This document shows positions 51,712 to 58,904 of a stretch of 64,000 bases of DNA, one piece after another; within the stretch, counting starts at the first letter, position 1; the number at the start of each line of letters is the position of its first letter. Origin of the DNA: Eledone cirrhosa (taxonomy: Eukaryota); NCBI GenBank assembly GCA_964016885.1, contig OZ024744.1, positions 86,552,001 to 86,616,000 of the forward strand. Direction: 5' to 3'. The notes under the pieces were generated by a model. The model was given only the letters and a program-made list of their open reading frames with translations. It did no database searches and had not been told where the DNA came from. Position numbers and translations under genes: made by a program.

Positions 51712-51758
<47 letters not shown>

Positions 51759-51783
51759 TGTGATAAACAACATAAGGCAATTA

Positions 51784-51843
51784 TTCCATTTACCAGTGGT
51801 TTCTTAAAAGCAAAAGATTTTGCTTTCAATCCTCAGAATGAAA
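51784..51843 (-). ncRNA. Hammerhead candidate (family HH-5), intact
   Basis: tttcatt CTGAGGA ttgaaagcaaaa-tc-ttttgcttttaa GAAA ccactgg TA aatggaa. 7-bp stem I, long stem II, GUA triplet. Confidence 0.8.
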
Positions 51844-51983
51844 AAATCCTGGTCTGTTTATTGAATTTGGATTTTTAAAACATAAATGCAATCTATATGA
51901 AAGTGAGGCTGGAGAAGGAAGAAGGAAAGGAAAAATAAAATAAAACGACACTTGCAAACACACACACAAAAACACAAAAGCAT

Positions 51984-52048
<65 letters not shown>

Positions 52049-52733
52049 ACTATATTATATTTTGAGAATAAACTCTCAGTCGTTTACAATAAATCAGCTC
52101 CAAGAAAGGGGCATTTCCGAGCAGTTAAATACATTAATATATATGATAAACACAAAATGTGTTTGCATTGCAACAGACAAAGTTACCTATTAATGAAATA
52201 AACTAATTAAAGTGAATACAATTTGTCTGTCTCGATATAAGTCAATAAAGACAAGCTTATATTGGCAAAGGCCGTGATTCCTGGACAAATCTAAATTTCA
52301 AAATCCAAACCCGCTCCGTAGATGAATTTGAACCTCGAAACCTAAATATGTTTCGCAACGATGGTACATGAATTGAAAAATAAAGAGAATCGAAATGGAA
52401 TTGAAATAAAAAGTGAAATATCCACATACATAAACATACATACATACATGCACACAATCATACATATATACACACGTACATACATACACATACATAAATG
52501 CACTCCTCTACATATTCACACACGCAAATAAATATAAGAAAAAATATAAATATATATATATATATATATAAATATAAACAAATGCACGTATACATACGTA
52601 CGAAATAGTAAATACATACACACACTCTCGCACATAAATATACATATACAAATACATAAACACATACATACACATACATGCACAAACACGCACACGTATA
52701 CAATTATACACACACATATGTATATGTAATTAT

Positions 52734-52764
<31 letters not shown>

Positions 52765-52900
52765 CATAAATATAAACATACACACACACACATATATGTA
52801 TACATACACACATACATATACATACATAGCTATACAGTTATACACATACAAATACGTACATATCATAAACACGCACAACCAAATACAAACACACACACAC

Positions 52901-52953
<53 letters not shown>

Positions 52954-53068
52954 TACACATATACATGTGTGTGTGTGTAAAACTCAGTCTTAGATAATTC
53001 ATATGAACCTTACATATACATATATATAGTAGTAAAGTAATAAAGTAATAAGCAACATAAGGCAATTA

Positions 53069-53128
53069 TTCCATTCACCAGTGGTTTCTTAAAAGCAAAA
53101 AATTTTTCCTTCAATCTTCAGAATGAAA
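53069..53128 (-). ncRNA. HH-5 copy with GUG triplet (probably inactive)
   Basis: Same scaffold; the cleavage-site base is G. Confidence 0.6.
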
Positions 53129-53200
53129 AAAACCTGGTCTATCTACATATACATACATATACACACACAAATATATATATATATACATATATATACACAC

Positions 53201-53285
<85 letters not shown>

Positions 53286-53746
53286 AATATACATACACAT
53301 ACACATAGGTATGTGAAGGGCAAGGCAAAAAGAATATATTGGGGGGGGGGGGCATAGGAAGGGGTGAAATATAAGAGTAGGTAAGGGAGAAAAAAAATAA
53401 ATATACAAGAGTACAGAACGTAGATTCAGCAAAAAAAAAACCGTAGCAGAAGTAAAGAGCAGGAAAGGAGTTCAAGGCGGTTGATTTATCATAGGAGTGT
53501 CAATCCAGTTACAGATCAGATGCGATTTCAGATCAGATGCGATTTTAGATGAGGACAGCATCTGAAGATCTCAGTCTTTGAGTTAAGGTAAGCGGAAGTG
53601 GCTCTCAAGTTTAGCAAAATGCTATACTTTTCTGTGGTACACAAAGAACAATTCTTTGTGCCCCCTTTGGTACTCCCTCGAATGGTCTAATATAGACCAA
53701 TCAATAGAGTACGGGATGTTACCATCCTTGAGTTCCCACACCTTAC

Positions 53747-54304
53747 TTGCGAGGGCCGTTGATCAGCTACTCTTGTTGCCCGTCTATGAAGTCCAAAATC
53801 ACCAGTTCAAACCATACGAGAATAAATCCAGGATGCAGTTGGAGGAGGCCGGATGAAAGCCCATTGCAGGGTAAATGTAACACCAAATCTGTTGTTTATG
53901 AGGCTAAGACAACACCGGTAATCAAAAACCAGCCAGCCAGGAGTGAGCGATATGTCGGTATGACCCAGGAGAGGTTTAAAACCAGATTTTACTCACATGT
54001 CGCTTCTTTTAAGCACTCCGATAAACGAACATCAACGGCCCTCGCAAGTAAGGTATGGGAACTCAAGGATGGTAACATCCCGTACTCTATTGATTGGTCT
54101 ATATTAGACCATTCGAGGGAGTACCAAAGGGGCACAAAGAATTGTTCTTTGTGTACCACAGAAAAGTATAGGATTTTGCTAAACTTGAGAGCCACTTCCG
54201 CTTGCCTTAACTCAAAGACTGAGATCTTCAGATGCTGTCCTCATCTGAAATCGCATCTGATCTGTAACTGGATTGACACTCCTATGATAAATCAACCGCC
54301 TTGA
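53747..54304 (+). mobile_element. PLE GIY-YIG endonuclease fragment (5'-truncated)
   Basis: PLQGKCNTKSVVYEAK..YVGMTQERFKTRFYSH..STALASKVWELK..WSIL..CSLCTTEK..LNSKTEIFRCCPH. Confidence 0.88.
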
Positions 54305-54591
54305 ACTCCTTTCCTGCTCTTTACTTCTGCTACGGTTTTTTTTGCTGAATCAACGTTCTGTACTCTTGTATATTTAATTTTTTTCTCCCTTACCTCCCCT
54401 TATATTTCACCCCTTCCTATGCCCCCCCCCCATATATTCTTTTTGCCTTGCCCTTCACATACCTATGTGTATGTGTATGTATATTTGTGTGTATATATAT
54501 ATATATATGTATGTATATATGTGTGTATATATATGTATATATATATATATTTGTGTGTGTATATGTATGTATATGTAGATAGACCGGTTTT

Positions 54592-54651
54592 TTTCATTCT
54601 GAAGATTGAAGGAAAAATTTTTTGTTTTTAAGAAACCACTGGTGAATGGAA
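54592..54651 (+). ncRNA. HH-5 copy with GUG triplet
   Basis: Mirror of 53069-53128. Confidence 0.6.
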
Positions 54652-54782
54652 TAATTGCCTTATGTTGCTTATTACTTTATTACTTTACTACTATATATAT
54701 GTATATGTAAGGTTCATATGAATTATCTAAGACTGAGTTTTACACACACACACACATGTATATGTGTATGTGTGTGTGTGTG

Positions 54783-54841
<59 letters not shown>

Positions 54842-55273
54842 GTATGTGTGTGTGTGTGTGTGTTTGTATTTGGTTGTGCGTGTTTATGATATGTACGTAT
54901 TTGTATGTGTATAACTGTATAGCTATGTTTATGTATGTGTGTATGGCTATGTTTGTGTATGTGTATGCTTGTACACATATATATATATATGTATATGTGT
55001 GTATATATATATGTATGTATATGTGTGTATGTATATGTATTTATATTTATGTTTCTATGTGTATGTATATGTGTATATATGTGTGTGTGGTTGTATATAT
55101 GTATTTGTATGTATGGATGTGTTGATATTTATGTGCGTATGTATATATGTGTTTGTGTGTATTTATATACACATATATGTGTATATATATGTGTGCGTGT
55201 GTGTATGTATGAGTGTATGTATGTGTATATATATATATATATGTGTATGTATATGTATGTATAAATATGTATA

Positions 55274-55359
<86 letters not shown>

Positions 55360-55626
55360 AAGTTTTATTTAAATTGTTGGGTTACAACGAGTAAATATTT
55401 ATAACTGATATAAAAGCACTCAACAAGTATTTGGAGTATATTTACGATATTAAATAAATGGAAACTATATTTATATAACCATATTTATTTCATTATATAT
55501 ATTTCAGGGATATCATATTAAAAATATGGTATGCCTTCTTCAGACAAAATACAATATAAACAGTCTTATAAATAGATAGATTTGACATACCTTACAACTT
55601 CAACTTCCATTTAAAAAGTTGATTTG

Positions 55627-55692
55627 TATTTTGTCTGAAGAAGGCATACCATATTTTTAATATGATATCCCTGAAATATATATAATGAAATA
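55627..55692 (+). ncRNA. HH-2 hammerhead candidate; mirror copy at 55486-55551(-)
   Basis: tattttgt CTGAAGA aggcataccatatt-ttt-aatatgatatccct GAAA tatata TA atgaaata. Confidence 0.65.
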
Positions 55693-55732
55693 AATATGGT
55701 TTTATAAATATAGTTTCCATTTATTTAATATC

Positions 55733-55787
<55 letters not shown>

Positions 55788-55943
55788 TGTGTGTGTGTAT
55801 GTATGCTTTTGTGTTTTTGTGTGTGTGTTTGCATGTGTAGTTTTATTTTATTTTTCCTTTCCTTCTTCCTTCTCCAGCCACACTTTCATATAGATTGCAT
55901 TTTTGTTTTTAAAATCCAAATTCAATAAACAGACCAGGATTTT

Positions 55944-56003
55944 TTTCATCCTGAGGATTGAAAGCAAAATCTTTTGCTTTTAAGAAACCACTGGTAAATG
56001 GAA
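55944..56003 (+). ncRNA. HH-5 hammerhead candidate (GUA)
   Basis: Mirror of 51784-51843 with one stem I change. Confidence 0.7.
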
Positions 56004-56742
56004 TAATTGCCTTATGTTGTTTCTTACATAACTATTAAGCTCTGTTACCTACATAGAGCACTCTTTTTTCCTGGACTTTTCCGACGGAATTACTTCATTC
56101 ATACATATTCAGACATATATATATATATATATTATCTCCTTTATATATATATTATATATTATGGAATACTGTTGGCTTCTTTGCTCACAATAATTTCGTC
56201 TCACTTTCTTTCGTCCCCTCTGTCATGTCAGTTAACACCTTCTCTCTACTGACCTCTTCCTCGCACTTCCACTCACTCACTCTCTGTTTCTCCCCTTCTT
56301 ACCTCCCCCCGTTCGCTACGAACCCGATTTTCCTTCTTTCTAACATCGGATTCACTAACGAAAGGTCTATTTCATATTCACACAGCTTAAGCTGACAGAA
56401 TAACCATGTTGCTTGTGTTTCTTTCCATATTCGGTTAGCTTTCCCCTGTGTTGTTTATTTGTCTCACTCGCTTTACGCGTTTCAATTGTCCTAATAACTT
56501 ATTTTAGTTATTGTCACACCAACGTGGGGTATATGATTTTTAATGCGATGAAATACCAATGATCGTTGGCAAATCACTGATGAGGGACTCATTTTATAAC
56601 ATATAATCCATGTGCAACCATGCAGTATTCTTCACCCCATATTTTTCATATATATATATATATATTATCTCCTTATATATATATATATTATATTATGGAA
56701 TACTGTTGGCTTCTTTGCTCACAATCATTTCTATACTTTTTC

Positions 56743-57842: not shown

Positions 57843-57874
<32 letters not shown>

Positions 57875-57887
57875 GATGATGATGATT

Positions 57888-57928
<41 letters not shown>

Positions 57929-58449
57929 AACAACGATGATGATAATAATAACTGTTTCTACTTTTGGCACAGGGCCAGAAAATTCCCCAGTGTATTACTG
58001 GTACTTTATTTCATCGACCCCCGTAAGGATGAAAGGCAAACTTAACCTCGGTGGGATTTGAACTCAGATCGTAAAGGGACATAACTATGCTGGAAAGCAT
58101 GGCGTCCGACCCTCTACCGATACTGCCAATTATGATGATAACGATGATGATGATGATGATGATGAAGATAATAATTGTTTCTACGGTAGACACAAGGCCA
58201 GCAAATAATCCAGTACATTACTGGTACTTTATCTTATCGACCCCGTAAGGTTGAACGGCAAAGTTAACCTCGGCGGGATTTGAACTGACTGTAAAGGGCC
58301 GTAACTCTATGCTGCAAAGCATGGCGTCAGATCCTCTACCGATACTGGCAATCCACCGCCCTAATAATTGTTTCTACTTTTTTGGCACAAGGCCAGCAAT
58401 TAGCCAGTGTATTACTGGTAATAATAATGATGATAATTATGATGATAAC

Positions 58450-58503
<54 letters not shown>

Positions 58504-58904
58504 GATAATAATTGTTTCTACTTTAGGCACAAGGCCAGCAATTACACCAGTGTATTACTGGTACTTTATTTTATCGACCCCCGTAAGGATGAAAGGCAAA
58601 GTTAACCTCGGCGGGATTTGAACTCAGAATGGCAAGATTGATAATTATGAAGATATGGACATTGTGGGAGATATTAACGGTGGTAAAGATGATGATGTAT
58701 GTGGTGAAGATGATGGAGATGGTGATGGTGATGGTGGTGGTGACGGTGATGGTGATGGTGATGGTGATGAAGATTGGTGATTGATGGCGGAGTTGGGATA
58801 AACGACTATGATTTCATTGATTCAGCTGATGATTATAGTAACACTGCAGCTTATATTGTTACTACTATTGCTACTGCTGATGGTGGCGGTGGTGATGATG
58901 GTGA

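What the first reader, a model, noticed from the sequence alone, without database searches (positions are those of the whole stretch)
51765..56032. 4.3-kb PLE palindrome with four hammerheads: outer pair GUA, inner pair GUG
Seen: a truncated GIY-YIG ORF is followed by a 3' region with two HH-5 copies ~1.35 kb apart, and the whole region is mirrored upstream. The outer copies have CUGAGGA, a clean long stem II and GUA. Both inner copies share CUGAAGA, a damaged stem II and GUG, so those changes predate the inversion. Stem III (ACCACUGGU) has a 1-nt loop, implying a dimeric fold between tandem copies. Inference: an asymmetric dimer in which one copy is only a partner strand. The element also appears to carry TA/TG microsatellites inside its own 3' region.
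Basis: partly seen in the sequence, partly recalled or inferred. Interest (0 to 1): 0.75.

Follow-up and report, generated by a model that had tools for sequence, protein, structure and literature searches.

The report
Retrotransposon carrying its own disarmed ribozyme
This is an ordinary mirror-image insertion of a Penelope-type jumping gene, but its lineage picked up a second copy of its own predicted self-cutting RNA and then changed that copy's cut site, likely disarming it, which leaves a natural step-by-step series for testing what these ribozymes do.

Summary
Observation confirmed. The four hammerhead motifs are there (outer CUGAGGA/GUA, inner CUGAAGA/GUG). The arms differ at 16 of 837 aligned non-repeat bases and carry different inserts, so this is not an assembly artefact. 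The element is a Hydra-clade Penelope-like retrotransposon, and outward-facing inversions are its usual insertion form. The asymmetry is a family trait: inner GUG in 81 of 94 places, outer GUA in 131 of 134. Other copies show how it arose. A single-hammerhead ancestor gained a ~105-nt truncated copy of its own 3' end in a (TA)n tract of its 3' UTR, at first with GUA. GUG, changes in the end signal and a stem II mismatch followed; an older subfamily roots this order. Best reading (0.55): a disarmed passenger, drifting at about the neutral rate. 'Partner strand only' does not fit the dimer geometry: in a swapped dimer the inner core would cut the outer GUA. A helper-enzyme role stays open (0.25), because no lineage change hit the inner core, stem I or stem III. 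No cleavage or RNA data.

The parts
51755..51985 (-). Left arm: terminal 3' UTR plus outer hammerhead (CUGAGGA at 51836-51830, GUA at 51793-51791), ending at the ACAUAAC end point against (TA)n
52055..52415 (.). Secondary insertion present only in the left arm (a dispersed repeat, 8 of 426 loci)
52418..53030 (-). Left arm: element-borne degenerate TG/TA tract and the m1 marker
53030..53145 (-). Left inner hammerhead module (CUGAAGA 53121-53115, GUG 53078-53076)
53305..53763 (-). Left arm: proximal 3' UTR and last ~270 nt of the ORF; inversion point at 53763/53764
53764..54304 (+). 5'-truncated ORF end (C-terminal GIY-YIG region of a Hydra-type RT-EN protein; 92% identical to the near-intact 711-aa copy in L073)
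54305..54577 (+). Proximal 3' UTR and TG/TA tract; ~700 nt present in single-hammerhead relatives are missing here
54578..54690 (+). Right inner hammerhead module: ~105-nt 5'-truncated copy of the element's own 3' end in a (TA)n tract; CUGAAGA 54599-54605, GUG 54642-54644, altered end signal
54705..55800 (+). m1 marker and element-borne degenerate TG/TA tract
55357..55735 (.). Secondary ~380-nt palindromic, MITE-like insertion in (TA)n, right arm only (similar sequence in 73 of 426 loci)
55800..56032 (+). Right arm: terminal 3' UTR plus outer hammerhead (CUGAGGA 55951-55957, GUA 55994-55996), first end point at 56032
56033..56099 (+). 67-nt PLE 'tail' (start of the next unit's 5' UTR), at this end only

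Best explanation
This is an outward-facing inverted insertion of a Hydra-type Penelope-like retrotransposon whose lineage carries a second, internal copy of its own hammerhead that is likely a disarmed passenger rather than a working part. Shown by the copies: the ancestor had one terminal GUA hammerhead; a ~105-nt 5'-truncated copy of the element's own 3' end landed in a (TA)n tract of its own 3' UTR, still with GUA; ~700 nt upstream were then lost; GUA became GUG; the end signal changed (ACAUAAC to ACAUUAC to ACUUUAC); stem II gained a mismatch. Inferred: an internal cut site, and an internal place where reverse transcription can start, would split or shorten the template, so lineages that lost them were tolerated or favoured; cleavage, if any, is by outer-outer dimers between tandem units, or protein-assisted.
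For: Ladder S0 (no inner) - S1 (GUA) - S2 (GUG) - S3 - S4 (window) on a tree built from ORF end and proximal UTR only. Intermediate with intact upstream UTR plus GUA inner module and the same 5' junction in both tandem units of L196. An older subfamily (82-87% identical ORF; no inner module in the two traceable copies, L357 and L375) agrees with S0 at 35 and with S4 at 10 of 47 differing ORF sites. Similar short terminal modules sit alone in (TA)n (L107), and longer ones in the same UTR (L248, L218). About 8 lineage substitutions in the inner ~100 nt against 2 in the outer (hand count); rough synonymous yardstick 7.9 per 100. Median stem II energy inner S4 -2.5 (n=103) vs outer -8.9. Outer+outer swapped dimer equals the cofold minimum; inner+outer lies 5.6-6.3 kcal/mol above it. 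Inner-type GUA modules served as, or look derived from, insertion ends in 3 of 7 cases; GUG ones in 0 of 11 clear cases, and 0 of 21 S3/S4 modules picked for lacking an exact downstream marker. 138 of 155 outer ends run 36 or ~105 nt past GUA, so the template is not an RNA ending at that cut; PMC11167929 reports uncleaved RNA as the main template in another PLE in vitro.
Against: No clear lineage-level change hit the inner core (11 sites), stem III (7) or stem I (14); only two variants reach 4 of 94 places there. P about 0.03-0.08 under uniform drift, with post hoc site classes. N7, the one free core position, changed twice, and U>G occurred in inner and outer together. S2/S3 inner stems II stay strong (-7.6, -7.1), and the A>G stem II change also occurs in terminal hammerheads of another subfamily. 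The end-use contrast drops to P=0.29 if two unclear GUG cases are counted. Protein outgroups gave mixed polarity and the stages cannot be told apart by age, 1.3-1.6%. That G17 blocks cleavage is recalled (NUH rule), not tested. No cleavage or RNA evidence.
Confidence: 0.55

Rival explanations
1. Helper enzyme: the inner copy is kept as a built-in catalytic half. It pairs with an outer copy through the ACCACUGGU palindrome, its core cuts the outer GUA, and its own GUG keeps the UTR intact, so one element cuts once without a tandem neighbour.
For: Core, stem I, stem III and the 7 basal stem II pairs escaped clear lineage change while N7 changed twice; S2/S3 inner stem II is -7.1 to -7.6; palindrome duplex -8.2; GUG forms are 35 of 80 m1-anchored copies against 2 GUA forms; metazoan PLE hammerheads are thought to need dimers (PMC4209133).
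Against: The window's subfamily (S4), the largest two-hammerhead group, has the weakest inner stem II and a predicted misfold; single-hammerhead relatives make up 43 of 80 copies and spread without a helper; overall inner rate is near neutral; templates extend past the outer GUA.
Confidence: 0.25
2. Decoy: the inner copy captures the outer one in a dead dimer (outer core facing GUG, weakened inner core facing GUA) and so protects the template's 3' end, or a circle, from being cut.
For: Pairing strands (stem III, both stem I strands) are kept while the cut site and then stem II weakened; inner+outer cofold keeps the intermolecular stem III and one stem I but not the inner core; insertions need sequence past GUA.
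Against: In S2/S3 the inner core looks sound and would cut rather than protect; no core-killing change fixed; the relatives without it do well.
Confidence: 0.12
3. The motifs, outer included, do not cut in vivo and act only as a structure marking the 3' end for the element's protein; GUG is then a chance fixation.
For: First stem II pair is U-A, not G10.1-C11.1 (cf. PMC4209133); no Rfam match; in PMC11167929 ribozyme mutants did not affect insertion in vitro.
Against: Outer core and GUA are kept across subfamilies ~15% apart, with pair-keeping one-sided changes in stems I and II; N17 changed in the inner lineage only.
Confidence: 0.08

Closest known systems
Hydra clade of C-terminal EN+ Penelope-like elements (Craig et al. 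2021, PMC8557442; passages and section 11 read)
   Same: RWK, DKT, CxCX5C linker, CxxC and CxH around the EN, hammerhead, (TA)n insertion, tandem and inverted truncated forms, tail at one end.
   Different: Unit is ~4.6 kb (L063) because of a long microsatellite-rich 3' UTR, against 'generally <3 kb'; a fixed second, uncleavable-type hammerhead inside the UTR is not mentioned in the text read (supplementary file S2 not seen).
Dimeric type I hammerheads of metazoan PLEs and amphibian retrozymes (PMC4209133 parts 1-2 of 4; PMC7229834 passages; PMC3088659 passages)
   Same: Type I topology, long helix II, short palindromic helix III, predicted swapped dimer.
   Different: There the partners are like copies in pLTRs or tandem repeats and both sites can be cut; here one unit holds two unlike copies, one with GUG. 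No G10.1-C11.1 first pair.
Poseidon PAc of Anolis (Frangieh et al. 2024, PMC11167929; parts 1-3 of 4 read)
   Same: Two insertion end points downstream of the hammerhead that define the tail; AT-rich targets, including its own sequence.
   Different: Different clade; one hammerhead per unit; tail here 67 nt; hammerhead lies outside the ORF.
Terminons (PMC6431247, passages)
   Same: PLE-derived elements with 3'-terminal hammerheads.
   Different: EN-less, telomeric, giant; not a microsatellite self-insertion.

Membership tests
Hydra-clade PLE | Single ORF, RT followed by C-terminal GIY-YIG EN | tested here: met
   711-aa frame in L073 with FDIVD/YRDD RT motifs and YVG..F..R EN region; window ORF 92% identical. 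Pfam gave no significant hit.
Hydra-clade PLE | RWK and DKT motifs | tested here: met
   RMRWK and SDKT in L063/L073; this part is missing from the truncated window copy.
Hydra-clade PLE | CxCX5C linker; CCHH absent; CxxC and CxH around conserved E and N | tested here: met
   CSCRKPDEC, CSLC, CPH in L073; linker mutated in the window copy. CCHH absence judged by eye.
Hydra-clade PLE | Insertion into (TA)n | tested here: met
   73 of 155 outer ends abut (TA)n directly; window left end too.
Hydra-clade PLE | Generally short (<3 kb) | tested here: not met
   Tandem unit 4632 nt in L063, owing to the long 3' UTR; a typical, not a strict, trait.
Hydra-clade PLE | Groups with Hydra families in an RT tree | not tested
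   No named Hydra references were held.
PLE architecture | Partial tandems, inverted truncated copy, optional tail | tested here: met
   Tandems L063, L064, L074; 26 outward-facing pairs among the first 100 listed motifs; tail on 65 of 155 ends.
Type I hammerhead (outer) | CUGANGA, GAAA, NUH and stems I-III | tested here: met
   only one-sided pair-keeping changes seen across subfamilies, no two-sided covariation.
Type I hammerhead (inner) | NUH cleavage triplet | tested here: not met
   GUG in both window copies and in 55 of the S4 places against 2 GUA and 1 GUC.
Type I hammerhead | G10.1-C11.1 closing pair | tested here: not met
   U-A in all four copies; a G-U or G-C pair lies two positions up.
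Type I hammerhead | Match to an Rfam hammerhead model | tested here: not met
Dimeric hammerhead | Self-cleavage that depends on a second copy | not testable with these tools
   Only folding energies.

The most novel reading that the evidence does not exclude
A retrotransposon domesticated a self-inserted copy of its own ribozyme into an asymmetric two-part hammerhead: the GUG copy is the enzyme (or a tunable decoy) for the terminal GUA copy, so one element controls its own single cut without a tandem neighbour, and every step of this invention is still lying in the genome.
Probability: 0.3. Interest if true: 0.75.

Novelty: new variant of a known kind. Interest (0 to 1): 0.48.

Why it matters
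What hammerheads do in endonuclease-bearing PLEs is still open (PMC8557442, PMC11167929). This family offers natural alleles in one background: no inner copy, inner GUA, inner GUG with a sound stem II, inner GUG with a weak stem II. That an internal GUA copy was replaced by GUG in the lineages that went on spreading hints that cleavage matters in vivo. It also shows how microsatellite-targeting elements that carry microsatellites rebuild themselves by self-insertion. The palindrome itself is ordinary.

Tried and rejected
Assembly artefact: rejected (arms 1.9% apart, different inserts, form common in the genome). Local mutation: rejected. Alternative core using the GAAA right after CUGAGGA-UU: rejected by eye, no stem I. 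Rfam at gathering and E<=10: no hammerhead. Pfam: nothing significant. RNA: no RNA holder listed; laying DNA contigs X1-X3 gave no piece spanning the inversion point and was uninformative. Dating stages by distance to their own majority did not separate them, and rooting by 30 protein homologues was mixed; the nucleotide outgroup was used instead. A-to-I editing as the cause of GUA>GUG: no hyper-edited copy among 80 ORF ends; lineage differences lean to A>G/T>C (23 vs 13) unlike per-copy ones (208 vs 360), which editing or RT error could both give; inconclusive. Literature searches listed nothing on a fixed uncleavable second hammerhead in a PLE; only listings were seen for most hits, and the supplements of PMC8557442 (HHR tables) were not read. 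Earlier-findings look-ups by sequence and by words were blank.

Full report
Observation. The left arm mirrors the right from 54031 onward, with 16 substitutions in 837 aligned non-repeat bases. Each arm has its own later insertion, 52055-52415 and 55357-55735. An assembly duplication would not give this. The right end continues 67 nt past the first end point, to about 56099.

What the element is. Tandem copies (L063, L064, L074) give a ~4.6-kb unit: outer hammerhead, 5' UTR, ORF, long 3' UTR, outer hammerhead. A near-intact 711-aa frame in L073 has RWK, DKT, a CxCX5C linker and CxxC/CxH motifs, the marks of the Hydra clade in PMC8557442. No tree with named references was made. A 26-nt outer motif has 3,960 exact matches in G000; among the first 100 listed, 26 pairs face outward within 10 kb. 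Of 155 distinct outer ends, 73 abut (TA)n, 65 carry the tail, 4 run on into the next unit and 13 are other. Inverted truncated copies and a one-sided tail are described PLE features, so the palindrome is ordinary.

The asymmetry is a family trait. Among full-length modules in loci L001-L326, inner ones (followed by the m1 marker) read GUG in 81 and GUA in 12 of 94 separate places; outer ones read GUA in 131 of 134 (a place can hold more than one module). In the window's subfamily GUG stands in 55 places, GUA in 2, GUC in 1 and other triplets in 5. The loci came partly from best-hit searches, so they are not a random sample; the m1-anchored set is unbiased as to the hammerhead: of 80 hits classified, 43 have no hammerhead before m1, 2 have GUA and 35 have GUG.

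How it arose. A tree from the ORF end and proximal UTR alone orders the copies as S0 (no inner module), S1 (GUA), S2 (GUG), S3 (N7 G), S4 (N7 A, stem II mismatch; the window). In S0 the (TA)n tract before m1 is empty. In L196 both tandem units keep the full UTR and carry a GUA module of ~105 nt in that tract, with the same 5' junction as S1. S1 lacks ~700 nt upstream. An older subfamily (249 exact motif matches; ORF 82-87% identical) shows no inner module in the two copies that could be followed from ORF end to terminal hammerhead, and sides with S0 at 35 and S4 at 10 of 47 sites. Protein outgroups were mixed and the stages are of similar age, so they ran side by side. ORF differences S0-S4 are 34 synonymous to 12 non-synonymous codons, as expected for active lineages.

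Geometry. The palindrome ACCACUGGU forms a predicted 8-bp intermolecular helix of -8.2 kcal/mol; a monomer could close only 3 bp with a 3-nt loop. That fits the dimer model of PMC4209133. In such a dimer A15.1 of one copy pairs with U16.1 of the other, so each core acts on the other copy's triplet (inference). The outer core would meet GUG, which the NUH rule (recalled) excludes, and only the inner core could cut the outer GUA. 'Partner only' therefore gives no cut. Outer+outer equals the cofold minimum, whereas inner+outer lies 5.6-6.3 kcal/mol above a fold that breaks the inner core. Median stem II energy is -8.9 for outer, -7.6 and -7.1 for S1-S3 inner and -2.5 for S4 inner modules.

Passenger or part? 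By hand count, the inner module took about 8 lineage substitutions from S1 to S4 and the outer 2, against about 7.9 expected from a rough synonymous rate taken over S0-S4. Four of the eight touch end functions: the triplet and three bases near the first insertion end point. Inner-type GUA modules ended an insertion, or were joined to other sequence at that point, in 3 of 7 cases among the first 30 hits (10 of the 30 were terminal modules of another subfamily and were set aside); GUG modules did so in 0 of 11 clear cases, with 2 unclear (P 0.04, or 0.29 counting those). All 21 S3/S4 modules picked for lacking an exact m1 still ran on into it. Against the passenger reading, none of the clear lineage changes hit the 32 core, stem I and stem III sites (P 0.03-0.08, post hoc), N7 changed twice, and its U>G step is shared with the outer copy, which drift alone does not explain well.

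Mechanism. Shown: anatomy, family-wide asymmetry, order of steps. Inferred: the RNA template extends past the outer GUA, as in PAc, where reverse transcription starts at two internal sites and uncleaved RNA is the main template; an internal GUA copy would risk a cut or a premature start; GUG and the altered end removed both. I put this at 0.55, helper enzyme at 0.25, decoy at 0.12, non-cutting structure at 0.08. No cleavage or expression data were available.

Novelty. A new variant of a known kind. Seven literature searches listed no report of a fixed GUG second hammerhead in a PLE; the HHR supplements of PMC8557442 were not seen and may bear on this. Papers seen: PMC8557442 (passages, section 11), PMC4209133 (parts 1-2 of 4), PMC11167929 (parts 1-3 of 4), 10.64898/2026.07.22.740005 (part 1 of 5), PMC7229834, PMC3088659, PMC6431247 and PMC11875169 (passages). 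The value lies in the allelic series, which makes the role of PLE hammerheads testable.

Noticed in passing
L213:6942-9149 (+); L296:2010-3701 (+): Open frames of two other Hydra-type families (736 aa, 42% identical; and a partial one, 36%); the L213 one sits in a TA tract inside a single-hammerhead copy of this family.
   Followed up: partly
window 55357-55735: ~380-nt palindromic MITE-like insert in (TA)n; similar sequence in 73 of 426 loci, often inside this element's UTR.
   Followed up: partly
window 52055-52415: Unidentified dispersed repeat in the left arm, in 8 of 426 loci.
   Followed up: no
window 56110-56735: ~535-nt direct repeat right of the element with GAAA upstream of CUGAUGAG at ~56550-56590, a scrambled hammerhead-like core; similar in L329 and L347.
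   Followed up: no
L063:3050-3240 and window 57864-58624: A short dispersed repeat interrupts the ORF in both tandem units of L063 and also lies in three copies in the window.
   Followed up: no
loci of stages S2-S3: Core position 7 changed U>G in inner and outer copies at about the same step: short-tract conversion or parallel selection, unexplained.
   Followed up: partly
L381, L391, L163/L164, L387: Copies that end at a GUA inner module, and a sub-lineage in which that end is joined to the ancestral UTR at another TA site.
   Followed up: partly
L238:3243-4250: Three head-to-tail repeats of terminal UTR plus GUA hammerhead, ~380-400 nt apart, retrozyme-like.
   Followed up: no
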